DNA of 54,139 bases, taken from Sphaerodactylus townsendi (taxonomy: Eukaryota). The position numbers and the translations under genes are program-made. Shown in pieces: positions 656 through 52,625 of this stretch. Position 1 is the stretch's first letter; every line of letters begins with the position of its first letter. The stretch lies in contig NC_059439.1 of assembly GCF_021028975.2 (NCBI RefSeq), forward strand, positions 22,692,001 through 22,746,139, written 5' to 3'. The notes under the pieces were generated by a model. The model saw only the letters and a program-made list of their open reading frames with translations. It did not search any database and was not told the DNA's origin.

Positions 656-1609
656 CTAAATTCCACAAGGAAATGATCTAGTACTAATCAGTTTCCTCAT
701 TGCCAATTTCACTTCCTTGTTCCGCAGGCTGTAGATAAGTGGGTTGAGTGTTGGTGTTAAGATACTGTATAGAGCTCCCACAAGCTGGTCTCTCTCTAGT
801 GAGTAGCTGGATGTTGGACGGACATAGGTAAATATGCTGGAGCCATAGAACAAAATCACAACTGTCAAGTGAGATGCACATGTAGAAATAGCTTTGTGAC
901 TCTGTCTTTTCTGTTGGTTGCTCAAAATGGCATGAAGGATGAAAACATAGGAGACTAGGGTAAAGAAAAAAGGGCTAAGCCCTACAAAGACACCCACTGT
1001 AAGAAGGGCAATTTCATTGACTGATGTGTCTGAACATGAGATGCTCAGTAATGGAGGGATGTCACAGAAAAAATGGTTAATCCTATTAGATTGGCAGAAA
1101 GACAGGCGGAATGTGAGTGCTGTGTGGACTGACGCATTGAGAAAGCCACAAGTCCAGGACATCAGAGCCATCTTCAAGCAAATCCCTTTATTCATGAAGT
1201 TGGTATAAGTCAGTGGGCGACATATGGCAAAGTAACGATCCAAAGCCATAGAGGCCAGAAGAAATCCCTCTGTGCCCACTAAGGTGACAAGGAAATACAC
1301 CTGTGCTTCACAGCCCAGAAAAGAGATGCTTGGAGATTCAGTCCAAAGATCTGTTAGAATTTTGGGTACAGTCACAGAAATGTAGCAGATATCTAAGAAA
1401 GAGAGGTTGCCAAGAAAGAAATACATAGGGGTTTGAAGGGTTTGATTTAAGAGAACCACCGTGATGATAAATGAGTTCCCTAAGAAGCAAATAGTATACA
1501 GCATGAGAAAGATAACAAAGAGGAAACCCTTTCCTTGCTTGATATTGTCAAATCCCAGCAGCATGAATTCCGTGAAAGATGTTTTATTCTCAGAGTAAGG
1601 CAAGGTCAT
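656..1609 (-). CDS. Olfactory receptor, class II, OR5V1-like (317 aa)
   Basis: 7TM OR motifs LQTPMYFFLGNLS, MALDRYFAIC, HFFCDIPPLL, STCASHL, LNPLIYSLRNKE; N-glycosylation site NKT. The first ATG is at 1609; the ORF-track start at 1627 is a TTG upstream of a splice acceptor (ttcag|attagacatcATG). Confidence 0.96.
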   Translation of the reverse strand: MTLPYSENKTSFTEFMLLGFDNIKQGKGFLFVIFLMLYTICFLGNSFIITVVLLNQTLQTPMYFFLGNLSFLDICYISVTVPKILTDLWTESPSISFLGCEAQVYFLVTLVGTEGFLLASMALDRYFAICRPLTYTNFMNKGICLKMALMSWTCGFLNASVHTALTFRLSFCQSNRINHFFCDIPPLLSISCSDTSVNEIALLTVGVFVGLSPFFFTLVSYVFILHAILSNQQKRQSHKAISTCASHLTVVILFYGSSIFTYVRPTSSYSLERDQLVGALYSILTPTLNPLIYSLRNKEVKLAMRKLISTRSFPCGI

Positions 1610-3029
1610 GATGTCTAATCTGAACAATGCAAATAAAGAAGAGGATATTTAAGAAATTATTAGCATTGTGAGACTTTTGCAGTCGTTCTGCTATAAGGTT
1701 TTAGTTAAAGGCTTGAATATTACTTTAACAACTAAATATTGATTAACCCCTTTTTTCTGCACTGCAGCTGATTCTACACATCAACCATTTTATTTTGTAC
1801 CAAAACTTTTATTCTTCATTTCCAGCCATCAGCTATTCTCAGGGACCATACATAACATGATGGTCTTTGCTGTCTAATAATAGCACTTTACTATTGTCCT
1901 CATTCTTTGAACTTACTTCCAGACATAGAAATCTTATAAAAAAATCTTCCCTTCATTTTCATTTTAGGAATTACACTTGCATCTCTGGCTTTACATTTGT
2001 TCAGGGACTATAAACCTTGGGATAAAAACAGATGAAATACTAGATCAGATTTTGCATAAGTTTTAATTTACAAGGTACATTAAGCAACCAAGTATCTCTC
2101 ACAGCTCCATGGGTCTCTCTAATTACTTTGAAGAAACTTGCATGTTCTCTTACCAAATGGTACTGTCTTCTATTACACAGGAAGTGATATTTGATTCAGC
2201 ACCCACTTTGTGCTATACCCTAATGAGGATTCCATCTCTCCAGTTTTGCTTCACCATCTCAACACAAATTATATCTTTTATAGATTCACCACAAGCTTAT
2301 GGAGAAGTGCCACTTTAGCCCCTGTGGGAACTAAACCCTATTTTTTGTGACATTGGTGGGATTCCATCCTTTTTCTGACCACCAAATCAAAATTACCAAG
2401 GTTATAATGGAAACCGTGGGAATTTTTCCTTTTGTAGTAACTCAAATACAGGAAGGAGATTTCTTATTTTTTAATTGACCAATTAATCTTAATTTGGTTG
2501 CTGACTACCATAGCTCTAATGCATAAACAAAGCCCTGATAATTGAAGTTCTTGATTGCAGAAAAGGAGAAATGCAGAGCTGAGCAAAAGTGAGTAGCAAA
2601 CATAGGAAAATAAAATGAATAATACTTGCAAGCCAGTCTCCCTAGTTCTAAAGCATACTATTGTACTCCCTAGTTCTAAAGCATACTGATATAAATGTAG
2701 CCAGAATAAACTTTAAGTTACTAAATTTCTGTTCATCGTTTTGTGCCAATTTTCTCTAGACTTTCTCATGAAACGATTGCTTCTTCTTGCCTTTCTTCCA
2801 ACCTTTCATGAAAATTCTTCTTTCCCCCGCCCTCACTTGATACTATCCTTCTCATTTTCATAGAGTTCATGCCATTGAACACGAATATATCACTCCCTTT
2901 CTACATGTAGGCTTTTACTAGCCTACAGGAAACTGTTGTGAGTCACTTGTGTATATATCCTAAGGCTGTATGAGAAAAAAAAAAACCCTGATTGCCCCTG
3001 TTGGCTATCCTGCATTAACGTATGATGTT

Positions 3030-6280: not shown

Positions 6281-7237
6281 TCACATTGCTGCATTCTGTG
6301 CAGAGATCATTCTTGCAACTGTCTTCTTAAAAGCTCCCTTGACTTCTTTGTTCCTTAAGGTGTATATGATCGGGTTTAGAACTGGAGTAACCACAGTGTA
6401 CATCAGAGCAATCATTTTGTCACTTCCTGGAGAACTGCTAGACTTGGGCCTCAAGTATGTGAATAGGGCTGTCCCATAGAATAACGTGACCACCATGAGG
6501 TGTGAGGAACAAGTAGAGAAGGCCTTCTTTCTCCCTTCTGCTGAAGGAAGCTTAAGGATAGTATACCCAATTCGCATATAGGAAAGGATTATGAGTACGA
6601 ATGGCCCCATGATGAATAGTATTGACACTGTCAAGACTACAATTTCATTTTTAAAGGTATCTGTGCATGCCATTTTCACCAAGGGTGGGATATCACAGAA
6701 AAAGTGTTGGATGAGGTTGGAACCACAAAATGGTAAAGTAAAGATCCAGGTTGTCTGAGTCACTTCCACTGTTATGCCAGTGACCCACGATGCTGCCGCC
6801 AACTGAATACAGACCTGGTGATTCATGATGACTGCATAATGCAAAGGATGGCATATGGCAACATAGTGGTCATATGCCATAGCTGCTAGGAGGCAGCATT
6901 CTGTCAGTCCCAGGATAGCAAAGACATACATTTGGGCAGCACAGCCAGTCTTGGAGATGGTTTTTTGCTCTGTTAACAAATGGATCAGCATCTGTGGGAC
7001 CACGCTGGTAGTGTAACAAATTTCCAAGAATGAGAGGTTCACTAGGAAGAAGTACATGGGAGTTTGAATGGGAGGGTTGAGTTTGATTAGCAGAATAATG
7101 AGCATGTTCCCTATTATGGTGATCAGGTATGTCACCAAGAACAGCAAAAAGAGCACGATTTGGAGCTCAGCCAGGTCTGAAAATCCCACTAAGATGAACT
7201 CATTGAGATTCGTCTCGTTCTCTCCAGGTTCTTCCAT
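6281..7237 (-). CDS. Olfactory receptor, class II, family 10 (OR10A/10C-like), 318 aa
   Basis: TPMYFFLVNLS, TECCLLAAMAYDHY, QTTWIFTLPFCG, KAFSTCSSHL, LNPIIYTLRNKE; NET sequon; upstream acceptor ttcctatttgaagtag. Confidence 0.95.
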   Translation of the reverse strand: MEEPGENETNLNEFILVGFSDLAELQIVLFLLFLVTYLITIIGNMLIILLIKLNPPIQTPMYFFLVNLSFLEICYTTSVVPQMLIHLLTEQKTISKTGCAAQMYVFAILGLTECCLLAAMAYDHYVAICHPLHYAVIMNHQVCIQLAAASWVTGITVEVTQTTWIFTLPFCGSNLIQHFFCDIPPLVKMACTDTFKNEIVVLTVSILFIMGPFVLIILSYMRIGYTILKLPSAEGRKKAFSTCSSHLMVVTLFYGTALFTYLRPKSSSSPGSDKMIALMYTVVTPVLNPIIYTLRNKEVKGAFKKTVARMISAQNAAM

Positions 7238-7646
7238 GAAAGGGGAAGCCTACTTCAAATAGGAAAAAAAGACAGGAATTTGAAACTGATTAAAGCAGTG
7301 ACATATAAGTTCAAAGAGAAGTCTGTTTTTCACTCTATGGCCTTTTCAGCGTGCAAAGTTTACCACTGATTTCCCCAGTGGTTAAATCTTTTAATGGGGA
7401 GCATCGTTTCCATAGTGGTAATCTTCTAGTGGTGCTTAGAAATATATATCGACACTAATTGATAAAGAGGGGTTGAATTAGAATTCACATTTGTGATGGG
7501 GAGCCATGGTCTACACACATGCAGAGTACTTTTCAACATGGAGTTCCAGCATTTTAAGCAGGTTGTCCGTCTTGTACCAAAACAAGGGTCAAAATATACT
7601 GGATGAGGACTCTGTGCCTTCGTTTGAAAGGCTCGTCTGAAACTTT

Positions 7647-11384: not shown

Positions 11385-12341
11385 TCAGCGCACTAAACTA
11401 GGAACATAATGAAATGTCATCAACCTTCTCATTCCCAATTTCACTTCCTTATTCCGCAGACTGTAAATAAGGGGGTTGAGTGTTGGGGTTAAAATATTGT
11501 ATAGAACCCCAACAAGCTGGTCTCTTTCAAGAGAGTAACTGGAGGTAGGACGGAAATAAGTGAAGATGCCTGAGCCATAGAACAGAATCACAACTGCCAA
11601 GTGGGAAACACAAGTGGAAATAGCTTTGTGACCCTGCCGTTTTTGTTGGTTACTCAGAATGGCATGAAGAATGAAAGCATAGGAGACTAGAGTGAAGCAA
11701 AAAGGGCTAAGTCCAACAAACACGCCTGCAGTGAAAAGAGCGACTTCATTGACTGATGTGTCTGAACAAGAAATACTCAGCAGTGGAGGGATGTCACAGA
11801 AAAAATGGCTGATCCCATTAGTTCGGCAGTAAGACAGATGGAACGTGAGTGTTGTGTGGAGGGAAGCATTGAGTAAACCACAAATCCAGGATATGGTAGC
11901 CATCTGGAGGCATGTCCATTTATTCATGAACTGGGTATAGCTCAATGGGCGACAGATAGCGAAGAAACGGTCCAGAGCCATAGATGCCAGAAGGAATCCC
12001 TCTGTGCCCACTAAAGTGACAAGGAAGTACATTTGTGCTGCACATCCCATGAAGGAAATGCTTGGGGATTCAACACAAATGTCTGCCAACATTTTTGGTA
12101 CAGTCACGGAGATGTAACAGACATCTAGGAAAGAGAGGTTGCCGAGAAAGAAATACATGGGGGTATGGAGTGCCTGATTTAAGAGAACCACAGCAATTAT
12201 GAGTAAATTTCCTAACAAGCAGATGGTATACATGGTTAGAAAGAGGATGAAAAGGAAACTCTTTTCTTGCTTGATATTTTCAAATCCCAGTAGTATGAAT
12301 TCCTTGATGGACGTTTGATTCTCAGAGCAGGACAGGTTCAT
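11385..12341 (-). CDS. Olfactory receptor, class II, OR5V1-like (318 aa)
   Basis: Close paralogue of 656-1609; LHTPMYFFLGNLS, MALDRFFAIC, STCVSHL, LNPLIYSLRNKE. Confidence 0.96.
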   Translation of the reverse strand: MNLSCSENQTSIKEFILLGFENIKQEKSFLFILFLTMYTICLLGNLLIIAVVLLNQALHTPMYFFLGNLSFLDVCYISVTVPKMLADICVESPSISFMGCAAQMYFLVTLVGTEGFLLASMALDRFFAICRPLSYTQFMNKWTCLQMATISWICGLLNASLHTTLTFHLSYCRTNGISHFFCDIPPLLSISCSDTSVNEVALFTAGVFVGLSPFCFTLVSYAFILHAILSNQQKRQGHKAISTCVSHLAVVILFYGSGIFTYFRPTSSYSLERDQLVGVLYNILTPTLNPLIYSLRNKEVKLGMRRLMTFHYVPSLVR

Positions 12342-12835
12342 GATTTTTAATCAAAACACTATAAACACAAAAACAGACATAACCATGTGATAGAAGTACT
12401 TCTGCAGATCTCAGAAAATCATATTTAGTCGTAATGAAATGCTATGAGCTTCATAACACTCACAGATATCCCTTGAACATCGATTTTTGTTACATAGTTG
12501 TAGCTGTTCCGTCAGCCACTACTTACAGCAACAGGAAATTATGACTTGTCTTGACTTAACAGAAAATTATGACATGTCTTGACATAAAATGACATGTTGG
12601 TTTAGAAAGATTTCACCCCCTCTCTCAAATTTTCCTCATTTTTTAGTCCCTAGAGGGTGACTTTCCAAATTCTCTCCATTGTGGAATAAATGTAATCATT
12701 TCCTCTCTTGTATTGTCAAAGGCTTTCACGGCTGGAATCACTTGGGTGCTGTGTGGTTTCCAGGCTGTATGGCCGTGTTCCAGCAGCATTCTCTCCTGAC
12801 GTTTCACCTGCATCTGTGGCTGGCATCTTCAGAGA

Positions 12836-13041: not shown

Positions 13042-13362
13042 TGCTAGAACACGGCCATACAGCCCGGAAACCACACAGCACCCAAATTTCCTCTCTTGTT
13101 TTAAGAATTATGTCTCAGAAGGACTTTGACTTTAACCCCATTAAGAAGACTCCAATGGTGGAAAGACAAGTGAACCTGCCAAGTCCATGGTTCAAAGTTG
13201 CATCCTCCATAAAGTTGTTTGGTGGCCTTAGGTAGCCAACATCTATCTGGCTTTTATCAACACTCGAAACATTATGGCTTGGATCTTCTCCATTCTCTCC
13301 CCCAAATCAGAAGAAATGCTAGTGGAGTTCAATCCCCCCCCCCCACGCACACACCTCCACAC

Positions 13363-13498
13363 CAGTGGTGGGATTCAAATAATTTAACAACCGGTTCCGG
13401 TGGTGGGATTCAAATAATTTAACAACTGGTTGTTTACAAGCACTATTTTAACAACCAGTTCTGCTGAAGTGATGTGAACCTGCTGAATCCCACCATTA
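13363..13498. mobile_element. hAT MITE
   Basis: TIR CAGTGGTGGGATTCA / TGAATCCCACCATTA; 8-bp TSD CTCCACAC; internal duplication of the left end. Confidence 0.85.
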
Positions 13499-15207: not shown

Positions 15208-15699
15208 ATAAAGGGATCAGGACTTGTGTTTTGCGGCAGTGTTGTGTAGTGGTTAAGGGCAGTGGACTCCAATCTGGAGAACCAGATTTGATTCTCCAAT
15301 CCTCCACATGAGCAGCTGCCATCCTCCAAGCAGGGGCTGGAGATCCCCAGAATCACACCATAAAGAGTAGTCCTCTTGGAGAATATGCTTGTGGCAGAGC
15401 GTAAACGCGATGGCATTATAATCCAGTGAGGTCCCTCATCTACCCAAATCCCACTCTTCCCAGCTTCCACCTCCAAATCTCCAGGGCAAAGACTACATTT
15501 TGTTCAGATGTTCAACTGCTTCTTTGAAGTCAGAAAACATTTGAGTCATCTAAGAAACATTTTCCGGTGGGGAGGGGGAGGAATTGTGTGATCTCTGATC
15601 ATTCATTCATTTAACTTACCAGTGGAAACAGCTAATTGGATCCAACTCATAACTTCATCAGTATTTGAATCCACTTGCCTAAATAAAACTTGCTAATGA

Positions 15700-15828
15700 C
15701 CTTATTCGTGATGAGATTTTCACACAAGGCCAGGGACTATACTCATGATCCAGCCTAACCCTAACCCTAACCCTTATTCGTGATGAGATTTTCACACAAG
15801 GCCAGGGAATATACTCATGATCCAGCCT
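15700..15828. repeat. 57-bp direct duplication flanking an interstitial telomeric repeat
   Basis: 15700-15756 and 15772-15828 differ by 1 mismatch; CCTAACCCTAACCCTAACCCT at 15754-15774. Confidence 0.92.
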
Positions 15829-16209
15829 TAATAATGATTTTTTCAGAATCTTGATTAAAAGCTATTCTGAGGAACAATAAGAAGAGTCAAACACAAATAA
15901 TCAACATGGTGCATAAAATCTCTGGAGAGCACAGTGCACAGCAAGTGTGAAGTAATTCTGTCCTACTGACCCTTCCTTCTTCTTTTCTCAGTGTTGCTTT
16001 TCCTCAACCCCCGCACCACCACCACCATCACCTTTTCAAGATTTTCAGAAGACAAGTTTCCACACATGGTCCTGAAACTGAATCTCTAGGGATGAAATAG
16101 GCTGTACAATTTAGAAAGGAATCTTTATTGCTTTATGCTGATTCCTTGACAATAGTGTTTTCCGTTCAAAATTCAGCATCCTTATATATGTCACTCTAAG
16201 AGAATCAAG

Positions 16210-17156: not shown

Positions 17157-18083
17157 TCACATCAGCAACTTTTTCATTGCCAATTTCACTTCCTTGTTCC
17201 GTAGGCTGTAGATGAGAGGGTTGAGTGTTGGTGTTAAGATGTTGTATAAAACCCCAGCAAGCTGGTCTTTTTCCAAAGAGTAGCTGGAAGTAGGACGGGC
17301 ATAGGTGAAGATGCCAGTGCAAAAGAACATAATCACGACTGTCAGGTGAGATGCACAAGTGGAAATGGCTTTCTGGCGCTGCCCTTTCTGTCGGCTACTC
17401 AAAACGACATGAAGGATAAAAATGTAAGAAACCAGAGTGAAGAGAAAAGGACTGAAGCCTACAAACACACCCGTTGTAAAAAGAGCTACTTCATTGGCTG
17501 ATGTGTCAGAACATGAGATGCTCAATAATGGAGGAATGTCACAGAAAAAATGGTTAATCTGATTTGATTGGCAGAAAGAGAGATGGAAGGTGAGTACTGT
17601 GTGGAGGGAAGCATTCAGGAAGCCACACATCCAGGACATTGCAGACAGCTGAATGCAGAGCCATGTATTCATGAGTCTGGTGTAGATCAGTGGGCGGCAT
17701 ATTGCAAAGTAGCGGTCAAGTGCCATAGAAGCCAGGAGGAATCCTTCAGTGCCTGCCAATGTGAGAAGGCAACACATTTGTACAGCACATTCCATGAAGG
17801 AAATGCTTGGAGGTGTGGCCCAAACATCGACTAGCATTTTGGGTACAGTCACAGAGATGTAACAGATATCTATGAAAGAGAGGTTGGTGAGGAAGAAATA
17901 CATAGGAGTGTGGAGAGATGGACTGAGCACGGCCACAGTGATTATGACAGCATTCCCTAAAAAGCAGATGACATACATGGTGAGGAAGAGGAAGAAGAGG
18001 AAATTCTTTTCCTGTTTGATATTTATAAATCCCAGCAGAATGAATTCCATAGGAGTTGTCTGATTCTTGTAGTTTGAGCTCAT
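17157..18083 (-). CDS. Olfactory receptor, class II, OR5V1-like (308 aa)
   Basis: Third paralogue; ATG at 18083 (MSSNYKNQT), since the ORF-track start 18092 is TTG; all OR motifs present; acceptor ttcag|attggacataATG. Confidence 0.96.
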   Translation of the reverse strand: MSSNYKNQTTPMEFILLGFINIKQEKNFLFFLFLTMYVICFLGNAVIITVAVLSPSLHTPMYFFLTNLSFIDICYISVTVPKMLVDVWATPPSISFMECAVQMCCLLTLAGTEGFLLASMALDRYFAICRPLIYTRLMNTWLCIQLSAMSWMCGFLNASLHTVLTFHLSFCQSNQINHFFCDIPPLLSISCSDTSANEVALFTTGVFVGFSPFLFTLVSYIFILHVVLSSRQKGQRQKAISTCASHLTVVIMFFCTGIFTYARPTSSYSLEKDQLAGVLYNILTPTLNPLIYSLRNKEVKLAMKKLLM

Positions 18084-18244
18084 TATGTCCAATCTGAATA
18101 TTATAAAAACAAAAATGATATTTAAGACAATACAACATTATACAATGTATTATCTAAAGATTATAAAATAATGGTGAAATTTTAAACAGAGTGGGATCCT
18201 TCTGAGCCTATTGACTTGAACACATTTAGAATGTTATAAACTGA

Positions 18245-20137: not shown

Positions 20138-20195
20138 AAAACTGTACATTATGTGCATATGATACAAACTGTACATTATGTGCATATGATACAAA
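20138..20195. repeat. 27-bp tandem duplication
   Basis: aaactgtacattatgtgcatatgatac x2. Confidence 0.85.
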
Positions 20196-22340: not shown

Positions 22341-23294
22341 TTAGCCTTCCATAGAAGTCCTGTTCAGCATCTTTGTCAAGAGAAATTTCTTAAGGGCTGT
22401 TCTCACCTCCTTGTTCCTGAGGCTGTATATGATTGGATTTAAGACTGGGGTAACTAAGCAGTAGAACACAGCCACTAACTGGTCCATGTTGAAGGAAAGA
22501 TTTCGGGTGGGCCTGACATATATGAACATCATTGTCCCATAGAAGATACCAACTACTGTCAAGTGGGAGGTAAAAGTGGAGAAGGCCTTTTTGCGTCCAA
22601 CTGAAGAAGGTATTCTTAAAACAGTAATGATAATGGCCACATAAGAAACTGTAGTTATTGTGAAAGAGCCAACAAGGATAAATGAACATATGAAAAAACT
22701 CAGCATCTCATTCAACTGGGTCCTATTACAGACTAGCCTCAACAAAGGCAAGATGTCACAAAAGAAGTGATCCACCACGTTGCTGCTACAGTAGTTTAGC
22801 TGAGAGATAAGGATCACTGGTATTAACGGCAGGACTAATCCAATCATCCAAGACCAAGTAGCAAGTTGAATATAAACAGTACTATTCATAATGGTGTTGT
22901 ATCTCAGAGGAGATCGTATTGCCACATACCTATCAAATGCCATAGCAGCTAAAAGTAGGCACTCAACGCCACCAAGACCATGAAAAAAATATATCTGGGC
23001 AAGGCAGTTGTTGAAGGATACTGTGTTCTTTTCCTTCAAGAGGTCCATCAGCATTGTCGGGACTGTGACTGAGGTAAAACAGATCTCCAAAAAGGAAAAA
23101 TTGCCCAGAAAGAAGTACATGGGTGTATGGAGAGCTGGTTCATATTTGATGATGAAAAGTATGACCAGATTCCCTATCAGTGATAATGTGTACATTATAA
23201 AGACCAGTACAAACACTATTACTCTTATATTTTGCAGGCTGGGGAACCCTCTGATAATAAATTCATTCATTCTTGTATGGTTTGAAAGATCCAT
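22341..23294 (-). CDS. Olfactory receptor, class II, family 6/11-like (317 aa)
   Basis: LHTPMYFFLGNFSFLEI, MAFDRYVAI, HFFCDILPLL, LNPIIYSLRNKE; NHT sequon; acceptor ccattacag| about 19 nt upstream of the ATG. Confidence 0.94.
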   Translation of the reverse strand: MDLSNHTRMNEFIIRGFPSLQNIRVIVFVLVFIMYTLSLIGNLVILFIIKYEPALHTPMYFFLGNFSFLEICFTSVTVPTMLMDLLKEKNTVSFNNCLAQIYFFHGLGGVECLLLAAMAFDRYVAIRSPLRYNTIMNSTVYIQLATWSWMIGLVLPLIPVILISQLNYCSSNVVDHFFCDILPLLRLVCNRTQLNEMLSFFICSFILVGSFTITTVSYVAIIITVLRIPSSVGRKKAFSTFTSHLTVVGIFYGTMMFIYVRPTRNLSFNMDQLVAVFYCLVTPVLNPIIYSLRNKEVRTALKKFLLTKMLNRTSMEG

Positions 23295-23822
23295 CTTGCA
23301 ATTGTTTCTTTACCTGTAATGGTAAAAGGAATTATTTCAATGTCATAAAAATGTGATTGGCCCCTTGTGAATACATTTTGAGTAATTATTATTTTGGTTG
23401 ATTTCACAGCTGCAAGTTCTTTAGCTGGTTGTTGGCCTTTCATTACAATTCGAGCCTCAACCAGAGGCCTAGGAAGTTGTAATGAATCGGCGTAGTATTA
23501 TTATTTTGTGGTAGGAACAGTTTGGCAGAGTAACCTAAACTGAGCAGTGATTGCCAATAAATGAAATGCATTGCACACTACATGATGTGTTTTAAAACAC
23601 AGGAATAAAGGGTTTTTAAGCAACAGAGAAAAATAAATGAAATTTTCACACTGCTGAAGAATTGTAATGGTGCAAGTAAAGAAAAAGAAGCCTCAGTAAT
23701 CGTGGTAGCATTGCTATGCAAGTCCACTGCAAGATGGGAAGGGAGCATTTTTACAAAAATGAGCCCTACCAGTTGTCTCTTTTAGTGACTTAGATGGTTG
23801 CCAATTCTTAATTCTAGACTTC

Positions 23823-29310: not shown

Positions 29311-31781
29311 TTAGATTGCCTTTTGCTCCCAAGGAGGCTGTTCTTCAAGAGATCTAGTCTCCCTATGATTCCCGTTTGCTCCTGCTCGGGGAGAGCCAGA
29401 AAGGGGTCTCTGAGATTGTCTTCTAGAATAGCACTGCCTAAGAACAGATCAGTGCAGGCATTGAAGTTCCATCTGGGTTATGTCCTTGAGGTGACTTTTC
29501 TTTGAAGCATCTTCTTTGTTAGTCTTATTCTCTGAGTCATCCATAGATAAGAATGGGATAGAGGGCTTTGGGAGCAACAGATTTTTAAATACACACGTTG
29601 GAAGAATTCCTCTTGAACCAAGGAACCCTTTAGAACCAAACAGAGTTGACAGAATGAGTGCTGAATTAAATGGTAAAATTACCTTCTGGTTCTGCTTTGT
29701 ACTCTTTAAAGATTCCACCGCACACCAGGTCAATATGTGCGGTCTCTCTCTTTAATAGAGTTTTTTTAAAACAGCCTTGAACTCAAGCCTTACATACCAG
29801 TCTCTTGTAGATCTTCAAAACTCTGACTGGTGGACCTTAGTGGAACAAAAAAAATTAACATTTGGAATTTATACCACAGTCACGAGCTATTCTGTCTGCC
29901 TTTGAAAATCTCCAGGCCCCACCTGAAATTTGAAAACCCTACTTTTTGTGTGGTCACATGGGACTCTTTCTCCTTCTTTCATTGGTCAGACAGAATTCAG
30001 TGCATGTTCAGGGACCTCCTCACGCATCCATACTTTCATGGGATCCTCATGTAAGGAATTCCTTGTTTCTTTTTTGACCAGAAAAAAAATCACAAGTGGA
30101 ATCTGCACAATTAAAAAGTTATATCTCAGAATATCTTGCCCAAACTTCTGCAAACGTTCTGCCTACCTAATCATCTTTGTCAGGGAGGATCTCATTACAG
30201 CATCAGTCCTCTGTGGAAACCAAAGTCCCCTGTGAAAACTGAGATAAGTAGTCGAAGAGATTATATTCCCCACTGTTCTATCATTCAGTAACAGTACAGA
30301 ATGATCCATCAGGTGCTTCATGCCATCTTTTGAAACATCACCTTGAATCATAGCTCTCAGTAATACAGTTCTATATCCACATAGCCTGCTTTTATGTCTT
30401 GAAATCGTCATATTGTCCAAACATTTTTTGTTTTAGTCTTGAGTTTCTAGTAATATGTGAAAGGAAGAAAGGAAGCACAGCAGTGAAATTTTCAGTCTTT
30501 CAAAGTTGAACAAAGGTAAGCAACCTATTGCCATGACCTGGATACTCCAGGCTAGACCAATCTCAGCAGGCTTTAGTAAATAAGCAGTGTCAGCCATGGT
30601 TAGTATTTGAATGGAAGAACCTTGTGAGGAATTCAAGGTTCATGACACAAAAGCAGGCAATGGAAAATGACTTCTAAAAATCTCTTGCCTTGAAAACTCG
30701 ACATGGCCGTCTTAGTTAACTGTGACTAGAAGGGGGGGAAAGAGTATGATATTGAAGTGTTTCATTACATTTTGTTCGAGGTAGCCATTCCCTGTTACTG
30801 TGTTACAAATTCTATTCTCAGTATTATTGCTACTTGGTGAAAGGAATTTGATTTTTTTTCTATCAGTGGAAGAAAGGAAATAATGCCCAAAATTTAAAAT
30901 CCTGTCAAGCACAGTCTCTTTCACTGAGGGCTCTTTCTGATGACTAATCAGCAGATGTCTAGAAAAAGGAAAACAAATCAAACATTGGTAGAGCACAGTA
31001 AAAAAGAGTGGGGGAGATGAAACAAGCCACAGCTTCAAATCTTCCCTTAGATTTCAGTCTAATATTGGTCTAGCTGTTAGTTCCCAGCCTCGCTCCCAAT
31101 GTCAATCTGCAATTTGTGGAAACATGTCTAATTTAAAAATGTATTGTAAAACATTTAGAGAGAGAATTTCTGGTCTTTCTTAGAATATGGTAGTACCACA
31201 TCGATGCTTATTGTAACATTGTGATTAGATTTACCTTCCTAATAATCCTAGTTGACTACATGATTATGTACTTCATATCTTTTGTATTTTCTTCTACCTG
31301 TCTTTTCCCCTTAGTTTAGTTGTCTGAAGTCATGAACCCCAGAGATGTATTTGAAAGTGACAGCCCCACATGGTGCAGTGGTTAGTGCTTTGGGCATGGC
31401 TCAACTCCCCGTTATCCCTTGAAGCTCACTTACCATACATACGTATCAACATATACAACAGTCTTATCCTATCAAATTTGTCAGTGAGGATCAATATTAT
31501 CTCTCACCAGCAGCAGTTCTTCAGTATCAGGAAGTAGTGGCTTTATTCAAACACCTGAGGATGAACTTGAAAAAAAGAAGGAGGAAAAAGAAGGGAAAAA
31601 AGCAGTTCTCCTGCCATACCCCTGGAAACTTTTAGCTAGTTACTCTCACTCAGCTAAATCTACTTCATAATAAGTTGTGCTGAACCATCTAAGCATATTT
31701 TATTTGCCACAATCGCAAATGCTTTAATTGTTATAAAAGGTCTGAAATATTTCTTTCCCATAGAGTACAAACTATATCAGC

Positions 31782-32765
31782 ATGATCATGGGGAACATAA
31801 CTACAGTAACACACTTCATCATCTTGGGTTTCCCAACTCTGAAGAAACTTCAACTTCTCCTCTTTGTTGTGGGGTTGACTGTCTATATCTTGACCTTGTG
31901 TGGACATCTCATCATCATCACCATCGTACGCACTGACCAACGTCTCCACACTCCCATGTATTTTTTCCTTAGCAACTTCTCCTTCCTAGAGATATGGTAT
32001 ACCTCAAACATTGTTCCCAAGATGTTAGAAGTCTTCCTAGATAAAGACAAAACTATCACATACACTGGATGCATTACACAACTCTATTTTCTTATCACAT
32101 TTGGCACAGCAGAATGTTTCATTCTTGCAATCATGGCATATGATCGCTACTTAGCCATATGCAACCCCCTGCGCTATCCAACTCTCATGAATAACAAGGT
32201 TTGCCTCCAGTTGGCTGTGTGCGCTTGGGTTGGTGCTTTTATTATCAATATTCCACCACTGGTCTCACTCTGCCAGCTACCATTTTGTGGACCAAATGAA
32301 ATTAACCATTTTTTTTGTGATGCACCCCCTTTACTGAAACTTTCTTGTATTAAACCCCATGCAGCCGAACTGTCTAATTTCATTGTGGCTACCAGCGTCA
32401 TTGTCAGCTCCTTCCTCCTCATACTGGTATCTTACATCTTCATCATCATCACAGTTTTGAAAATCCCCTCTTCTTCTGGGCGACAGAAAGCCTTCTCAAC
32501 CTGTGGGTCTCATCTGGCTGTCGTGATGATTTTCTATGGCACCCTGATGTTCATGTATGTGCGTCCAACATCCAACTTTTCCGTGGATTCTGTGAACTTC
32601 AACAAAGTCGTATCCATGTTCTACACTGTGATCACCCCCTTGCTAAACCCAATCATTTACTGCTTGAGGAACAAGGAGGTCAAAGAAGCCCTGCAGAAAG
32701 CACTCAGGGGGAACTGTCAGCTGCCATCAAAGTCAAGCAGCATTTCAGGTGGGATAATGAAATAG
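31782..32765 (+). CDS. Olfactory receptor, class II, family 6-like (327 aa)
   Basis: LHTPMYFFLSNFSFLEIWYT, MAYDRYLAIC, KAFSTCGSHL, LNPIIYCLRNKE; acceptor ttctttcccatag ending at 31763. The true start may be the second ATG at 31788. Confidence 0.96.
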   Translation: MIMGNITTVTHFIILGFPTLKKLQLLLFVVGLTVYILTLCGHLIIITIVRTDQRLHTPMYFFLSNFSFLEIWYTSNIVPKMLEVFLDKDKTITYTGCITQLYFLITFGTAECFILAIMAYDRYLAICNPLRYPTLMNNKVCLQLAVCAWVGAFIINIPPLVSLCQLPFCGPNEINHFFCDAPPLLKLSCIKPHAAELSNFIVATSVIVSSFLLILVSYIFIIITVLKIPSSSGRQKAFSTCGSHLAVVMIFYGTLMFMYVRPTSNFSVDSVNFNKVVSMFYTVITPLLNPIIYCLRNKEVKEALQKALRGNCQLPSKSSSISGGIMK

Positions 32766-33226: not shown

Positions 33227-33388
33227 ACTAGTCCCTCCCCAACCCTGAACATCTCTATGTAGACTTTCCTGTATGTATCTCCATCAGATCTGCACAGATA
33301 GTTTTCTGACTAGTCCCTTCCCACCCCTGAACATCTCTATGTAGACTTCCCTGTATGTATCTCCATCAGATCTGCACAGATAGTTCTC
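33227..33388. repeat. 82-bp tandem duplication
   Basis: actagtccct...ctgaacatctctatgtagact...cagatctgcacagatagtt x2 with a few mismatches. Confidence 0.9.
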
Positions 33389-34224
33389 TCTGCCTGTCAC
33401 TCTCTATTTTTGTATGCACTTGTAAGCATTGTAACACTTCTGAAGTCACAATTAAAATCATATTGGAATTTTCCTCAAATTTCTACTTCGTTTTGAGATT
33501 CCATAGCACAGGTTTTCAAAGCACATCCTGCTATAGTTTTTTTATCATTGCATATTCACACAAAATAAGCTTTAGATTTAACAGATACTTGTTGATATGG
33601 AATGGCATGGCATGGCAATGTATAGAATGCTACAGGAAAAGGGAAATTCATCCTGCTAGCAGACACACAATCCTAAGGTATTTGTTTAGTACTTTGTTTA
33701 GTACTGCTATATTGGGATGGCTCCATGGTCTGTTCTGCACAGCCTAAATAAGACATCATAGGGATGCTGGAAAGGACTACACATGGCTTTCTTCCCAAGG
33801 CTTCCTCAGGATGCCTTATTAAAGCTCAGGGAACCTTTTTTGGAGAATGTTTCAAAGTGCACCTAAGCTGCCTACAAGACACCTCCTGCCTGGCTATGTG
33901 GAATGTAGTGCTCAGGAGTCATCTTATTTTTCCTGCCCAATCACTTTGCTCTCAGGTGAGTTTCTTTGGGTGTCTGCTGAAAAAAGTTTAGACCCTGAAA
34001 AACTCATTGGTCTTAAAGTGCTTCTGAGTTCAAATTTAGCTGTTTTACTACAGCCCAACATGACCAACTACTGAAATTGTAAAATCTCTGTACATCTAGA
34101 CATATTTATTTATTTAAAATATTTTATTCTGCTTTATTTCTGCTGAAAATACAAAAAAAAGCAACACAGATCTTTTTGAAACATCTGCAGGACGTTTTAT
34201 TTCTGTTTTGCAGAAAGGATCAAA

Positions 34225-38296: not shown

Positions 38297-39217
38297 TTAC
38301 TTGTGTCCAAATATTTTTCCAAGAGCCCTTTTCACTTCCTTATTTTTCAGACTATAGATAATTGGGTTCAACATGGGAGTCAAAATACTGTACTGGATAG
38401 AGAATATTTCATCTAGTGCCATGGAAGAGACTTTGGTGGGTTTCATGTACTGGGACATTCCGGTCATGTATAGTAGGCCAACCACAATAAGGTGGGAGCT
38501 ACAGGTAGAGAAAGCTTTGCTTCTACCCTCTGCAGAGCGGATCTTCAGGATGGTGGAGATTATGTGAATATAAGAGACAAGGGTTGGTAGAAAAGATCCA
38601 AGTCCAAAAATTGCAACAGAAGAAAAAAGAATCACATTATTCAGAAAAGTGTCAGAACAAGATAATTTCAGTAGTGGTGGAAGTTCACAGCTAAAGTGGC
38701 TGATTTCATGGGCGCCACAGAAGTGTACATTTAACGTTGTCACCATGTTTAGTATTGCAAAAAAGAAACCCATTATCCATGCACCCATCACCAAGTAAGT
38801 GCATATGGTTTTGTTCATGATCACAACATAGTGCAGTGGGTGACACACAGCAGTATATCTATCATAAGCCATTGCTGAAAGAATAAAAACCTCTGTGACG
38901 CTCAACAGAAGGCTGAAAAACATCTGGGTAAGGCAGCCAACAAAGGATATTGCCTTCTGCTTTGTTATCAGATCCACTAACATTTTAGGGACAATGTCGG
39001 TAGAATAACAGATGTCAACAAAAGACAGGTGAGATAGAAAAAAATACATGGGGGTGTAAAGTGATGGGTCCACTCTTATGACCAGAATGATTGTCAGATT
39101 TCCTGACAAGGTGATTATGTAAATGGTGGAGAATACTAGAAAGAAAAAAAACTGCAGCTGGGGATCCTTAGAAAGTCCCAAGAAAATAAACTCTGAGGCA
39201 CTAGTTCGGTTCTCCAT
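38297..39217 (-). CDS. Olfactory receptor, class II, OR8S1-like (306 aa)
   Basis: TPMYFFLSHLS, MAYDRY, HFSCELPPLL, KAFSTCSSHL, SIQYSILTPMLNPIIYSLKNKE; acceptor ttcttttatag|. Confidence 0.95.
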   Translation of the reverse strand: MENRTSASEFIFLGLSKDPQLQFFFFLVFSTIYIITLSGNLTIILVIRVDPSLYTPMYFFLSHLSFVDICYSTDIVPKMLVDLITKQKAISFVGCLTQMFFSLLLSVTEVFILSAMAYDRYTAVCHPLHYVVIMNKTICTYLVMGAWIMGFFFAILNMVTTLNVHFCGAHEISHFSCELPPLLKLSCSDTFLNNVILFSSVAIFGLGSFLPTLVSYIHIISTILKIRSAEGRSKAFSTCSSHLIVVGLLYMTGMSQYMKPTKVSSMALDEIFSIQYSILTPMLNPIIYSLKNKEVKRALGKIFGHK

Positions 39218-40109
39218 TTGTTTTCAGCTACCTATAAAAGAAATAGGGTGAAATGTAAACAATTTAAACATGATTAAAACCCATTGTTTTCAACTCTTCC
39301 TTTGTCTATGATTAGTTTTTAAAATATATTTAATTTGGAAACACTGTAATTGTATATATTATTAATCCATAGACCAACAGATATACACACTATCTCTAAT
39401 CTATTTTTACTGTATTGACTCAGAGGGGAAAAAAACACTGGAGTTCAGTACATGATGCCACGTTGTCCGTTGAGTCGTATGTATTAAAGTTTACATTAAT
39501 AAAACAGAAATGTAAGACAAGTGCAACTTGGAAGATAGGTGTGCTCCAATCAGCTTTTCAACTGATAGAAAAAAACAAGGGTTTATGCACAAAAAAAGAT
39601 CCATGTGGGATGGTGACTACGTAAGAAGGAAAACTGGTTAAGTTAGAGAGAAAGAGCTTGCTAGATCTCACCCATACTATTTTAGTAGCTTGCAAATGGA
39701 GTTCACAGGATACCTTAGATTCCTTAGAAGATAAACAAGTGATCCCAAATGAGATAAATAATGGTTGGGTACATGTCTGGAAAACTGGCTGACCACCACT
39801 AACTGTCTTCCCTTGTAATGCAATCTGTATAAACTGCGGGTAAGGTCTAGAATTTTCCAAGAATCTGTTTCGATGTGCTGAGATGATGTGTCAGCTGTGT
39901 TAGAGTTCCTCAGTAGGTTAGTCCATGTAGGATGTGGCCTTTGAGATAGAACACAAAGACCACCACTCTATGGTGTGCAGTTAAAATCTTTTAGCTGGAG
40001 ATGTCTCTCATACATACTATACATAAAAAATTATTTCCAACTCAGGCAGTTCGAGAACTGGCCAAAGTGAAAGTGGCCATCAGATTAAGAGCATTTTTAA
40101 AAGATGCAT

Positions 40110-43717: not shown

Positions 43718-44650
43718 TTAGATTTTATTCCTCAGGAATGTTTTCTTCAAAGCCTCTTTTACATCTTTGTTCCTGAGCGTGTATATCATTGGATTCAACA
43801 GCGGAGTTATCACTGAGTAAAAAACAGCCACTACTTTGTTGGCGTTAGATTTGTACCTCACTGCTGGGCGAACGTACATGAAAATGAGGGTTCCAAAATA
43901 GATGGTGACTACCGAGAGGTGTGAGGCACATGTTGAGAATGTTTTCCTTCGGGCTGCAGCAGAAGACATTTTTAATATAGTGACTACAATGTGCATATAA
44001 GACCCTAGAGTGAATAAAAGAGCAGCCATTACAATGATAGAGCTAAAGCTGTAACCCACAACCTGGATGGCATAAGTATCGGTACAAGCAAGACGAAATA
44101 TCTGCCCTGCATCACAGAAAAAATGGTTAATCAGATTGGGACTGCAGAAGGATATTTTAGCTAACATGAAAGATGGAAAAGTAGGGCATATGAATCCTAC
44201 AAACCAACACAGGATAGCCACATTTCTACATGTCTTAGGGTTCATGATGGTGGAATAACGTAGTGGATTACATATTGCTAGGTACCTGTCATAAGCCATG
44301 ACCGTAAGGATGAATAGTTCTATAGCAGCAAAGGCAAAGAAGAAGTAATATTGGGTGATACAACCTGGGATTGAAATGGCTCTCTTGTCTGCCAAGAGAT
44401 TCGCCAACATCTTCGGCACTGTGACAGTGGTATACCAGACCTCAACCATTGACAGATTGCAGATGAAGAAATACATGGCAGTCTGGAGGCGTGAATCTGC
44501 CACCACAATGACAATGATCAGCAGGTTCCCCAACAGCGCCAGGATGTAGATGATTAGGAACAGCACAAACAATGCAGTCTCAAGGCTTGGGATGCTAGTG
44601 AAATGAAGAAAGACAAATTCTGCAACCACAGTTCGGTTTTCCTTCTCCAT
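43718..44650 (-). CDS. Olfactory receptor, class II, family 6/11-like (310 aa)
   Basis: AMYFFICNLSMVEVWYT, MAYDRYLAIC, KTFSTCASHL, LNPMIYTLRNKD; NRT sequon. Confidence 0.95.
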   Translation of the reverse strand: MEKENRTVVAEFVFLHFTSIPSLETALFVLFLIIYILALLGNLLIIVIVVADSRLQTAMYFFICNLSMVEVWYTTVTVPKMLANLLADKRAISIPGCITQYYFFFAFAAIELFILTVMAYDRYLAICNPLRYSTIMNPKTCRNVAILCWFVGFICPTFPSFMLAKISFCSPNLINHFFCDAGQIFRLACTDTYAIQVVGYSFSSIIVMAALLFTLGSYMHIVVTILKMSSAAARRKTFSTCASHLSVVTIYFGTLIFMYVRPAVRYKSNANKVVAVFYSVITPLLNPMIYTLRNKDVKEALKKTFLRNKI

Positions 44651-46532
44651 TATATCAGACAGCTACAGCTACAAGGACATAAACAATAACAGCAATGATA
44701 ACAGTAGTAAATTGGTGAAAGAATCATCATATGACTAAGAACATAAGAGCTGCTATGCTGGATTAGAACAGTGGTCCACCTGGTCTAACACCTAATTTTA
44801 CCCACCTAATTTTACCAACCAGTTGCACTCCAATGAATTCAACATGTGCATATGAAAGCCACTGTGTCTCCAGACTGAACCATGGTTGGTGGGGGAGCTC
44901 TGTTTTTTGGACACAAGTGTTCCAACTCATCCTGCTAACCTTAGGGATGGCTTGGAGATTCAGTGCCATGGTGGGTGTCATTCTCTGCATTGGCTAAGTA
45001 TCACTCACAAGGACAGAAGCCTGTCTGGGTCAACCCTTGTTAATATCAACTGTAATACAAGCCTGCCATGCTTTTTCCTTAAAAGATTAAGGAAAATATA
45101 ATACACCAGCTTGAGAAGATTGTTCCCACTTCCAGCCTCAGCTCACCTACCTCCATGAAACAAAGAGTACACTAATAAGATTTCATCAAGAAGTTCCTGC
45201 CAGACATCCTCCTGAAATACTAATCTCATCTTCTGATTTCTGACTAACCTCTCCCAAGATCACCTTCATTTACGTTAGCTTTGTCCTGAAGTGCTGTGTG
45301 GTTTCCGGGCTGTATGTCCTGAAGCTGTGTTTTGTCCTGAAACTGTGTTTGAGTCAGCTTCCTCTATCTTTGAACAGTCCCTGGCTTAGAACATTAAATC
45401 TAAGTGTCCAACATTAGTTTTAGGTATCCACCACATAACATAAGTGTCCATTTTTGTCTTCCCCAGGAAGACAAGGACCTCCCTTTGTCCAGGAAAGATT
45501 AAGCTCTTTTAGCACACTAGAGGACCCAGTCTTCCCTACAAATTACCTGCACATTCTGCAGATAGTGTTCAACATTTCTGAACTAAATCTCTGGCCTGAC
45601 TCTGTTGCACAAAGTATACTCATAGCTGCCTTGGTTCAGTTACAATGGCTGTCAGCTTCTTACTCTGTCTTGTATCAGAGCTCAGTACAGGTTGCTGGAC
45701 TCTGCTCATCAAACCATTCCACTCCTAGATCAGGTAATTATTCTTTTTATTCCCCCCAAATCCCTTGCTTTTCCAAATCTTTTCCCTCAGTACTACCAAT
45801 ATCCAAGGGCTGTGTGAATTCTCTGCTGCTTTGATTTGTGTGTGTGTACATTGATTATTTTTGCCCTTTTAATAAAAATTGTTAAACTTTTACCCATGTT
45901 TCCTGTTGATTTCTTGTGGAAACCCATCTCAATAAACTTTGGTGAGAAACATCTCGAGCTTATCCAGCTTCTTGCTGCCCTAGGACTGCCCTCACTAATT
46001 TCCCACTTTAAAAAGGTGCAGACCCCATCATTTTGGGTAACAACTGGCTAAATTACATTGTTTATTTCATACACAGTTTATGCACCTGAGCGTCAGTCCA
46101 GTTCCCTTAAGTAAACTAAGTTTTGCTGAAAAGATACACACTCACACACTGTTTTCAAAGTGCTTCACATAATTGATACAATGCATCATAAGCGGTGATA
46201 TCTAAATGGATTTTCTAGGTTCAGAGGCAGTAACACTTTGGGTAAATGTGCTGTAGAAAACCATAGAAGGGGCCTTTAGGCTTTGTAGTCTAGGGTATTT
46301 GGTTTGCCCTGGGTGAAACAGGAAGAATATTCAACAAGATGGACTATTGGTCTGGTCTATAAAATTGAGTGTATGTTCTTAATTCATGATTGCCACCACC
46401 AAAGATCACCCTCCTTCCAAAGAAGTCAGAGTGATGTTCCATCTTGCTCAGGATTGTGTATTGTTCAGTGGGAGTGGCTCTCGAGGTTCTCAGTTCTTTC
46501 TAGATTCCTGTTACCTGAGATTCTTTTAACTG

Positions 46533-50770: not shown

Positions 50771-51704
50771 TAAACACTGAACTGATGTTGGCTGCAGAAG
50801 AGCTTCATAAAATATTATTTTGTTGAAATTGGATACAATTTGAGCTGGGATCTTGATGAAGACCTGTATACACTGGACGCTCTTTAGGGACATCTGGGCA
50901 CCCCCCCCAAAAAAAAAAATAAATGTCACTAGTCTATTCAGCACTCTTTCCCTTAGGATTCTTTGTAGTAGTTGCCTAAAATGAAGCTCAACATTTACCT
51001 CTGATATTCTGACATGCAAGATTGGGTGGCAATTATAGTTTCTGGTCTCATCATTATTGCTGCCTGTACACCAAGGTTATTTTCTCATCATACATGCATT
51101 TTCCAAAAGATCTCCCTCTAAAGCAACATTATAGCATTAGTTAATACATATCAGTATTTTCTATGGTCATGGCCAGTGGCCCAGAAGATTTTCAGAGCCG
51201 TGTTGCTTGAGACTGTTTGGGAGATGAAAGGGATTATAGCTGTGACCTTCAACACACAAAGCAGATTCTTGACCACTGAGCCACAGCCCTTCAACAAGAT
51301 GAAGGACAAATGGAACACATACAGCCAAGTTATCATATTGATTTCCAACAATCCCAAGGTGAGTTATGAGGAACCTGCCAAGAATAGTTTTATTAAAACT
51401 GTCGCTAACTGCTTCCTACACTCTGGGTATGTCGGTTATGTGCCTTATTGAGAACCCCATATTCATCTCACACCGCGTCCACAATTGGGACAAAGGCGGA
51501 TGTTTGATGACAAATCAGTCACAGAACAACAGCAGTGAGTTGCTCTTCTAATATCCCTGTTGGAAGATCATATTCAGAAACGCCAAGTAACCAATGTAAA
51601 ATAGATGTTTGCTTTTTTTCATATGTCATACATCTTTATATATCGTATATTCATTATATATTCATATATTTCCTTCTTTTTATAGGTGTCACAGATTGTT
51701 AGCC

Positions 51705-52625
51705 ATGCTAGGAAACCAAACCGATAAAGGCTTCTTTTCTCTCCTTGGTCTTACCAACAATCTATGGCTCCAGATTTTCATCTTTGTCCTGTTCTTGATC
51801 ATTTATCTGCTAACTATAGTGGGGAATGTTATGATCATGCTGGCTGTAAAATTCAACCCTAATCTTCAGAACCCCATGTATTTCTTCCTGAGTCACCTCT
51901 CTTTCCTTGATGTTTGTTATTCATCTGTCACACTCCCAAAGATGCTGGAGATTACCATTGTCAAACAGAAGACTATAACTGTCAGTGGCTGCTTCATTCA
52001 GGCATTCTTTATTTTGTTTTCAGCCACTACTGAAGTATTTATGCTCTCATCTATGGCTTATGACAGGTACTGTGCCATATGCAAGCCACTGAATTACATG
52101 AACATCATGAATATGGCCTTCAATTGTAAGCTGGTGGCTACTTCATGGACAATTGGATTCTTGTATGCCCTTGCAAACACTTTGTCACTGTTCAGGCTAG
52201 AATTCTGTGGGTCAAACATCATAAGACACTTTAGTTGTGAGCTTCCTTCTATTCTCTCTTTGTCCTGCAGTGACACATTCATGAATAAAATGTTGTTCCT
52301 CATTTCTGGAGGCACAGTTGGTATAGTGTCCCTTTTTCTCACTGTGATCTCCTACATTCATATTATTTCTACCATCCTGAGGATCACCACCACAGAAGGG
52401 AGACAAAAAGCTTTCTCTACCTGCAGTTCCCATCTCGTTGTAGTGACTCTCTTCTACGGAACAGGTTACTTCCGCTACCTTAGACCAAGCTCAGCATCAT
52501 CAATGGTTTTGGATGAAATACTTTCCATACAATACAGCATCCTCACACCGTTGCTAAACCCTGTAATTTACAGCTTACCAAACAAGGAGATGAAGGCATC
52601 ATTCAAGAAGGTATTTCAACGATGA
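51705..52625 (+). CDS. Olfactory receptor, class II, OR8S1-like (306 aa)
   Basis: ATG at 51705 (gccATG, MLGNQT), downstream of the acceptor tccttctttttatag ending at 51685; PMYFFLSHLS, MAYDRY, HFSCELP, SIQYSILTP; paralogue of 38297-39217. Confidence 0.95.
   Translation: MLGNQTDKGFFSLLGLTNNLWLQIFIFVLFLIIYLLTIVGNVMIMLAVKFNPNLQNPMYFFLSHLSFLDVCYSSVTLPKMLEITIVKQKTITVSGCFIQAFFILFSATTEVFMLSSMAYDRYCAICKPLNYMNIMNMAFNCKLVATSWTIGFLYALANTLSLFRLEFCGSNIIRHFSCELPSILSLSCSDTFMNKMLFLISGGTVGIVSLFLTVISYIHIISTILRITTTEGRQKAFSTCSSHLVVVTLFYGTGYFRYLRPSSASSMVLDEILSIQYSILTPLLNPVIYSLPNKEMKASFKKVFQR

What the first reader, a model, noticed from the sequence alone, without database searches (positions are those of the whole stretch)
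15700..15828. Telomerase-like repair scar: telomeric repeats inserted in register inside a 57-bp duplication
Seen: two 57-bp copies (1 mismatch) separated by 15 nt, AACCCTAACCCTAAC. On the minus strand the copy ending ...AATAAGG continues GTTAGGGTTAGGGTT and rejoins at AGGCTGG, so both junctions share AGG in exact TTAGGG phase. Established: short interstitial telomeric sequences in mammals have been attributed to telomerase acting at double-strand breaks, sometimes with target duplication. Inference: a staggered break was primed at AGG-3', extended by 2.5-3 repeats and closed by microhomology. I do not know of base-level examples from squamates.
Basis: partly seen in the sequence, partly recalled or inferred. 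Interest (0 to 1): 0.7.

Follow-up and report, generated by a model that had tools for sequence, protein, structure and literature searches.

The report
Telomere-repeat patch inside a small duplication
A 57-base stretch between two smell-receptor genes is duplicated around 15 bases of chromosome-end repeat that two related organisms lack, likely the scar of a DNA break that telomerase extended before it was rejoined, a kind of scar already described in mammals.

Summary
Two 57-bp copies (one mismatch) enclose 15 nt of telomeric repeat, with three letters in phase at each junction. Public contigs of two samples span the spacer letter for letter, so it is no assembly artefact. Two related organisms carry one copy and no repeat, so the spacer is a derived insertion. 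Contig depths suggest both samples also carry an empty allele. The class recurs in this genome: 8 of 287 other short telomeric tracts sit exactly between two copies of 10-67 bp (control 1 of 6035), all with 3 or more letters in phase on the priming side. G-strand tracts start at AG far more often than chance (44 of 100, 17 expected). This fits telomerase priming at a staggered break, then short-homology closure (inferred, about 0.65). The class is known from primates, rodents and horse (duplications of 5-187 bp); nine searches found no base-level squamate case, and the taxon was not tested. The scan noted similar scars on other genomes. One oddity is open: the inferred empty allele carries the derived base of copy 2, which a single clean event does not explain.

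The parts
15700..15756 (+). Copy 1 of the 57-bp duplication; carries C at 15737, the base seen in organism D and in at least one contig path of the relatives
15757..15771 (-). Inserted telomeric repeat, 15 nt that neither copy supplies (G-rich strand on minus)
   Evidence: absent from organisms C and D
15754..15774 (-). Whole perfect telomeric tract, 21 nt, 3.5 units, including three in-phase letters from each copy
15772..15774 (-). Inferred priming junction: minus-strand 3' end of copy 2 ending in AGG, in register with the telomerase RNA template
   Evidence: register shown; priming inferred
15754..15756 (+). Inferred closing junction: 2-3 letters shared between the end of the added repeat and the tip of copy 1
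   Evidence: shared letters shown; use as microhomology inferred
15772..15828 (+). Copy 2 of the duplication; carries A at 15809, the derived base, which the inferred empty allele of organism B also seems to carry

Best explanation
This is a short interstitial telomeric sequence inserted with a 57-bp target duplication, absent from two relatives, and likely made in the germ line when telomerase extended one end of a staggered double-strand break before the ends were rejoined. Shown: the ancestral state is one copy with no repeat; both junctions are in telomeric phase; the genome holds a telomerase RNA whose template fits; the same anatomy recurs. Inferred steps: (1) nicks on opposite strands about 57 bp apart, or fill-in of such ends, left both ends with the same 57 bp; (2) the minus-strand 3' end, ending in AGG, paired with the template and was extended by 15-21 nt, most simply three rounds ending at the template boundary (TTAG); (3) the new 3' tip paired over 2-3 letters with the CCT tip of the other end, and fill-in and ligation closed the break; (4) later, one base changed and moved between the duplicated and the single-copy allele. 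It most likely does nothing: it lies 1.3 kb beyond the stop of one olfactory receptor frame and 3.3 kb before the next.
For: Empty orthologues: an X5 contig (organism C) joins 15756 to 15838 with 250 letters on the short side, and a second, more diverged X5 contig continues from 15756 straight into the letters that follow copy 2. X6 (organism D) has contigs 15677-15737 and 15780-15976 that overlap by 30 letters in copy coordinates, and its bin depth leaves no cover for 15746-15753. Telomeric 15-mer 2314 matches in G000 against 28 for the reversed pattern. Exact two-copy flanking duplications at 5 of 221 tracts against 1 of 6035 implanted tracts, Fisher p 3e-7, 8 of 287 after more loci, among them 45 bp (L261) and 67 bp (L417). 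All 8 have 3-6 in-phase letters on the G-strand priming side and 6 of 8 have 2 or more on the closing side. Start phase of 100 tracts of 20 nt or more: AG 44 against 16.8 expected, GGTT 2 against 14.0, chi-square 70, p 1e-13; end phase only p 0.04; the AG peak returns with a second search core, 25 of 57 new loci against 1 for the next longer class. Telomerase RNA gene at 131 bits with an 11-nt template. One tract runs 7 letters past the template boundary into telomerase RNA sequence. Published: duplication class and in-register letters (PMC2246262, PMC7215372); telomerase adds repeats at Cas9 breaks (10.1101/2022.10.31.514589); 43-50 bp 3' overhangs give tandem duplications (PMC8355091).
Against: The locus itself is symmetrical (3 letters at each side), so it fits capture of a telomeric fragment or C-strand synthesis equally well; direction comes only from other loci. 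No telomerase RNA sequence flanks this tract. Contig depths fit an empty allele that carries A, the base of copy 2, while organism D carries C; a single event on one chromosome gives two identical copies, so a further step is needed. A model in which every primer ends in AG overshoots (77.5 predicted against 44). With the second core, starts at GGTT are not rare (15 of 80). In-phase letters help short duplications pass the search thresholds, which inflates the register counts; only L261, L417 and L074 are long enough to be free of this. The first background test gave 72 of 5202 and fell to 1 of 6035 only after tandem arrays were filtered from both sides. Some telomeric 15-mers in this genome lie inside a dispersed repeat family.
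Confidence: 0.65

Rival explanations
1. A piece of telomeric DNA or telomeric RNA was captured at the staggered break by microhomology at both ends (polymerase theta or a retroelement reverse transcriptase), without telomerase.
For: Both junctions share exactly three letters with the insert. PMC2246262 and PMC7215372 (passages) name capture of telomeric fragments and retrotranscribed telomeric RNA as alternatives. Short retrocopies of telomerase RNA in G000 show that some reverse transcriptase copies non-coding RNA into this genome.
Against: Capture predicts no preferred phase and equal homology at both ends. G-strand starts are strongly biased (p 1e-13) and ends weakly (p 0.04), and register is longer on the priming side in the sister cases. 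No poly(A) tail, which marks L1-made insertions (PMC5110952 passages).
Confidence: 0.15
2. Telomerase made the insert, but the duplication came from two separate breaks 57 bp apart on two homologous chromosomes, one with C and one with A, joined end to end.
For: It explains in one step why copy 1 has the base of the relatives and copy 2 has the base of the inferred empty allele. End joining at nearby meiotic breaks gives tandem duplications in mice (PMC13532658, passage citing Lukaszewicz 2021).
Against: Two other routes fit as well: mutation in copy 2 followed by collapse to one copy, or gene conversion from a single-copy A allele. One mismatch in 57 is also what the 1.4% flank divergence from organism C would give (10 other letters in 723). 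The allele states rest on contig depth, which the tool warns is no copy number.
Confidence: 0.12
3. An ordinary tandem duplication gained a few letters at its junction, which by chance made one and a half telomeric units and then grew by slippage or local templating.
For: The unit begins and ends with CCT, and a 6-letter partial template lies 80 bp upstream of the junction. Short tandem duplications are common in the window.
Against: The longest local template is 6 letters. The reversed hexamer is 80 times rarer than the telomeric one, and 0 of 12 reversed-hexamer loci have a flanking duplication (too few to weigh much). Sister cases repeat the same register.
Confidence: 0.05
4. An assembly artefact, an ancestral 72-bp tandem unit, or the tail of a transposable element.
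For: X2 may be the source of the assembly, and only contigs, not raw reads, were on hand.
Against: A second sample spans the spacer with 0 differences; relatives have one copy; the 57-bp unit has no other match in G000 or the window.
Confidence: 0.02

Closest known systems
Short interstitial telomeric sequences of the duplication class (Nergadze 2007, PMC2246262; Santagostino 2020, PMC7215372)
   Same: [quoted passage not shown] The class makes up 6 of 130 rodent, 4 of 25 primate and 3 of 66 horse loci; listed duplications run from 5 to 187 bp, with 43 bp at human 2q31.
   Different: The tract (21 nt) is shorter than any in the supplementary tables read (24 nt or more). The passages read count register at the priming end only; here the closing end is in register too.
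TERC-ITS loci (Sola 2021, PMC8537989)
   Same: Same proposed enzyme and break-repair route; L053/L328 in this genome has the type-B layout (repeats followed by sequence from just beyond the template).
   Different: The finding itself has no telomerase RNA fragment, so it is not a TERC-ITS. In that paper 'reptile' occurs only in a reference title.
Tandem duplications at breaks with complementary 3' overhangs (CST, Pol alpha-primase, end joining; Schimmel 2021, PMC8355091)
   Same: Overhangs of 43-50 bp give duplications; those made by polymerase theta span nearly the whole overhang and use microhomology.
   Different: The section read reports no telomeric spacer.
Telomere addition at Cas9 breaks in human cells (bioRxiv 10.1101/2022.10.31.514589)
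   Same: Telomerase extends break ends with short homology; the authors expect end joining to leave an interstitial insert when shelterin does not load.
   Different: Induced somatic breaks with overexpressed telomerase; no target duplication in the passages read.

Membership tests
Short ITS, duplication class | Short, near-perfect TTAGGG tract at an internal chromosome site | tested here: met
   21 nt perfect; at 22.7 Mb of a 40.2 Mb contig
Short ITS, duplication class | Empty orthologous locus in relatives | tested here: met
   Organisms C and D have one copy and no repeat
Short ITS, duplication class | Direct duplication of the target on both sides of the tract | tested here: met
   57 bp, 56 identical
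Short ITS, duplication class | [quoted passage not shown] | tested here: met
   AGG, 3 letters
Short ITS, duplication class | Made by telomerase at a break | not testable with these tools
   Only indirect: start-phase bias, fitting template
Polymorphic ITS | Filled and empty alleles in one species | tested here: inconclusive
   Depth shared:spacer:flank 43.6:14.4:31.5 (X2) and 127.1:33.9:90.3 (X4) fit mixed alleles, not a homozygote; contig depth only, no raw reads
TERC-ITS | Fragment of telomerase RNA beside the repeats | tested here: not met
   No 13-letter match outside the template within 120 bp of the tract
L1-type templated insertion or retroelement tail | Poly(A) or element body, multi-copy unit | tested here: not met
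   Insert is pure telomeric repeat; unit single-copy
Fusion-type or heterochromatic ITS | Long, degenerate or head-to-head arrays | tested here: not met
   One 21-nt tract in one orientation, no telomeric words in 60 bp either side

The most novel reading that the evidence does not exclude
The scar records telomerase joining two homologous chromosomes in meiosis: breaks 57 bp apart on a C-bearing and an A-bearing homologue were spliced through three freshly made telomeric repeats. With it, the class in this genome would follow a two-sided rule (primer ending in AGG or GGG, closure by microhomology with the added repeat), and the start phase of short tracts would serve as an outgroup-free signature of telomerase in any vertebrate assembly.
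Probability: 0.12. Interest if true: 0.6.

Novelty: new member of a known kind. Interest (0 to 1): 0.3.

Why it matters
It extends telomerase-type break patching, described base by base in mammals and a few other vertebrates, to another lineage, with empty orthologues and a likely living polymorphism. Because a duplication preserves both original ends, such loci show the primer and the closing tip without an outgroup, and here both tend to be in register. The start-phase bias is a cheap test for telomerase authorship of short tracts. The locus itself probably has no effect on the animal.

Tried and rejected
Special structure of the 57-bp unit as the cause of the break: folding z-scores -0.39, -0.31 and 0.15, nothing unusual. 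Local template for the spacer: 6 letters at most. Telomerase RNA fragment at this locus: none. First background tests (23 of 2723 at loose junctions; 72 of 5202) were dominated by tandem arrays and were replaced by a test that drops third copies and low-complexity units on both sides; this also dropped L160 from the observed set. Preference for ending at the template boundary: weak (p 0.04-0.06 for tracts of 20 nt or more) and the first search core itself ends there, so no claim is made. Older, decayed tracts as the source of the AG starts: in-phase identity beyond the first mismatch is 0.20-0.36 on the 5' side, near chance; purine-rich context does not explain it (33 of 79 after dropping such loci). 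A collapsed paralogue instead of an empty allele: flank depth is close to that of an unrelated contig in the same runs (31.5 against 27.2; 90.3 against 75.4), so alleles fit better. Run X1 (organism A) was too thin to read. The reversed-hexamer control gave only 12 loci. A genome-wide search for read-through past the template found one such tract among 9 matches. No RNA run was on record among the 6 holders, so expression was not tested.

Full report
Observation. The sequence shows two 57-bp copies at 15700-15756 and 15772-15828 that differ only at C15737/A15809, with a 15-nt spacer. Perfect telomeric phase covers 15754-15774, so each copy supplies three in-phase letters. The tract is the only telomeric match in the window, and 0 of 100 shuffles reach its count. 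The window is G000:C15:22692001-22746139; a 401-base query finds this locus and one weak match outside the duplicated unit. Nine long frames of the window match the olfactory receptor family PF13853 (9 of 9 tested); the feature lies between those at 11385-12350 and 17157-18137, both on minus.

Real and derived. Six public runs hold the stretch; all are contigs. In X2, X3 and X4 (organism B, two samples) one 95-nt contig covers 15707-15801 without a difference. In X5 (organism C) a 745-nt contig with 10 other letters in 723 joins 15756 to 15838 with 10 letters between, and a second, more diverged contig runs from 15756 into the letters that follow copy 2. In X6 (organism D) contigs 15677-15737 and 15780-15976 overlap by 30 letters in copy coordinates, which I read as neighbours on a single-copy path (inference from the 31-letter word size); its bin depths leave no cover for 15746-15753 (5 records were not shown). 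The diverged contigs in C and D may be alleles or paralogues of this gene cluster; all lack the insert.

Probably polymorphic, with an oddity. The 37 letters shared by both copies, the spacer contig and the flank have depths 43.6, 14.4, 31.5 in X2 and 127.1, 33.9, 90.3 in X4. A homozygote predicts 2:1:1 and fits worst (rms log error 0.32 and 0.41). One filled and one empty allele carrying A predicts 3:1:2 (0.04 and 0.12); an empty allele carrying C fits less well (0.15 and 0.25); one filled haplotype in three fits X4 best (0.05). Organism D has C at this site. So the empty allele of B seems to carry the derived base of copy 2. Three routes fit: mutation in copy 2 and later collapse, conversion from a single-copy A allele, or joining of a C and an A homologue. 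I cannot separate them, and contig depth is a weak measure.

The class in this genome. A telomeric 15-mer matches 2314 times against 28 for its reverse. Five flanked patterns gave 298 matches; I fetched most isolated ones and some, leaving out clustered arrays. Of 279 distinct tracts 235 were isolated and 222 non-redundant. Duplications were sought up to 340 bp. Exact two-copy duplications abutting the tract occurred at 5 of 221 tracts, index excluded, against 1 of 6035 tracts implanted in the same flanks. An earlier background of 72 of 5202 came from tandem arrays, which were then filtered from both sets. A second search core (142 matches, 100 listed) and further stretches brought the set to 288 non-redundant loci: 8 of 287 exact, 12 within 3 letters, 15 within 10. 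This 3-5% is close to the share in rodents and horse. L261 has 45 bp around 8 nt and L417 has 67 identical bp around 13 nt. All eight exact cases end in AGG or GGG on the priming side; six share 2 or more letters on the closing side. Short cases are favoured by such overlap, so the three long ones (L261, L417, and L074 with one off-phase letter) carry the weight: 4, 3, 3 letters on the priming side and 3, 2, 2 on the closing side.

Direction. Among 100 tracts of 20 nt or more the G-strand starts at AG in 44 (16.8 expected from implants passed through the same filter), at GGG in 22 (13.5) and at GGTT in 2 (14.0); p 1e-13. End phases deviate only slightly (p 0.04). With the second core, upstream extension peaks at AG: 15, 21, 32, 6, 1, 3, 2 for 0-6 letters, and 12, 17, 25, 1, 0, 0, 2 for new loci only; here starts at GGTT are not rare. 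A fixed start and a loose end are what synthesis from a 3' end on a fixed template would give (inference). A model with AG-ending primers alone overshoots, so primers ending in G count too.

The enzyme is on hand. RF00024 finds a telomerase RNA gene at C8:96998766-96999162, 131 bits, with an 11-letter template. The primer end at 15772 matches the template over three letters, and over four of five with one mismatch (read). Seventeen added letters ending at the template boundary, the last two shared with copy 1, give the 15-nt spacer exactly; 15 to 21 are possible. L053/L328 continues 7 letters past the boundary into the RNA's own sequence; it is 1 of 101 tracts ending there, with a chance that I estimate by hand near 0.01.

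Mechanism. Shown: derived insertion, target duplication, two-sided register, recurrence, phase bias. Inferred: staggered break, telomerase extension, closure by 2-3 letters of homology, fill-in. I give this 0.65, capture of telomeric DNA or RNA 0.15, telomerase between two homologues 0.12, slippage 0.05, artefact or transposon 0.02.

What is known. PMC2246262 (passages; supplementary files 3 and 5 read whole) lists duplications of 5-187 bp and in-register letters. PMC7215372 (passages) reports staggered-break duplications and heterozygous loci in horse. PMC8537989 (passages) covers 30 vertebrate species and mentions reptiles only in a reference; its species table and supplements were not read. 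The bioRxiv preprint 10.1101/2022.10.31.514589 (passages), PMC8355091 (abstract and one results section), PMC13532658 (passages) and PMC5110952 (passages) bear on single steps. PMC4529230 (passages) maps squamate ITSs by FISH only. Nine searches (listings only for the other papers) showed no base-level squamate case; none was aimed at start-phase counts, and most subscription papers, Nergadze 2004 among them, were not seen. Earlier notes of this scan describe like scars on other genomes.

Verdict. Real, derived, probably polymorphic, and a new member of a known kind. Interest 0.3.

Noticed in passing
window 656-1648, 6281-7249, 11385-12350, 17157-18137, 22341-23309, 38297-39223, 43718-44662 (minus); 31764-32765, 51600-52625 (plus): Cluster of nine uninterrupted single-exon olfactory receptor frames, all over the PF13853 cut-off.
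   Followed up: partly
L322-L326, L329, L330 (G000 C1, C2, C3 twice, C6, C12, C13): Seven short dispersed copies of the telomerase RNA 5' part: template plus 24-30 letters towards the RNA start and a variable stretch on the other side; L326 seems flanked by a target duplication. They look like reverse-transcribed fragments; the enzyme is unknown.
   Followed up: partly
L053/L328, G000:C8:106706208: 26-nt telomeric tract followed by 7 letters matching telomerase RNA just past the template boundary; candidate type-B TERC-ITS. L106 and L047 show 5 and 4 letters.
   Followed up: partly
L261 (C10:62941681), L417 (C1:78601451), L074 (C2:99415912): Sister cases: 45, 67 and 20 bp duplications around telomeric inserts. 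L417 seems to lie in a LINE fragment (recalled resemblance, not tested), so the element consensus could give its empty state.
   Followed up: partly
L335, L340, L341, L344, L354, L391, L399: A dispersed repeat family carries a telomeric 15-mer inside it, after an A-rich run; it inflates counts of short ITSs.
   Followed up: no
L090, L069, L292: Duplications around telomeric tracts with extra letters at the junctions, in L090 partly copies of nearby sequence, as polymerase theta tends to leave (likeness recalled).
   Followed up: no
window about 15668-15684, runs X5 and X6: A diverged contig in organisms C and D has a loose end here that resembles the start of a short interspersed element (likeness recalled): a second allele or paralogue with its own insertion 20-30 bp from the finding.
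   Followed up: no
window 2638-2687, 33227-33389, 20139-20192, 13362-13431: Other short two-copy duplications with spacers of 0-6 non-telomeric letters.
   Followed up: no
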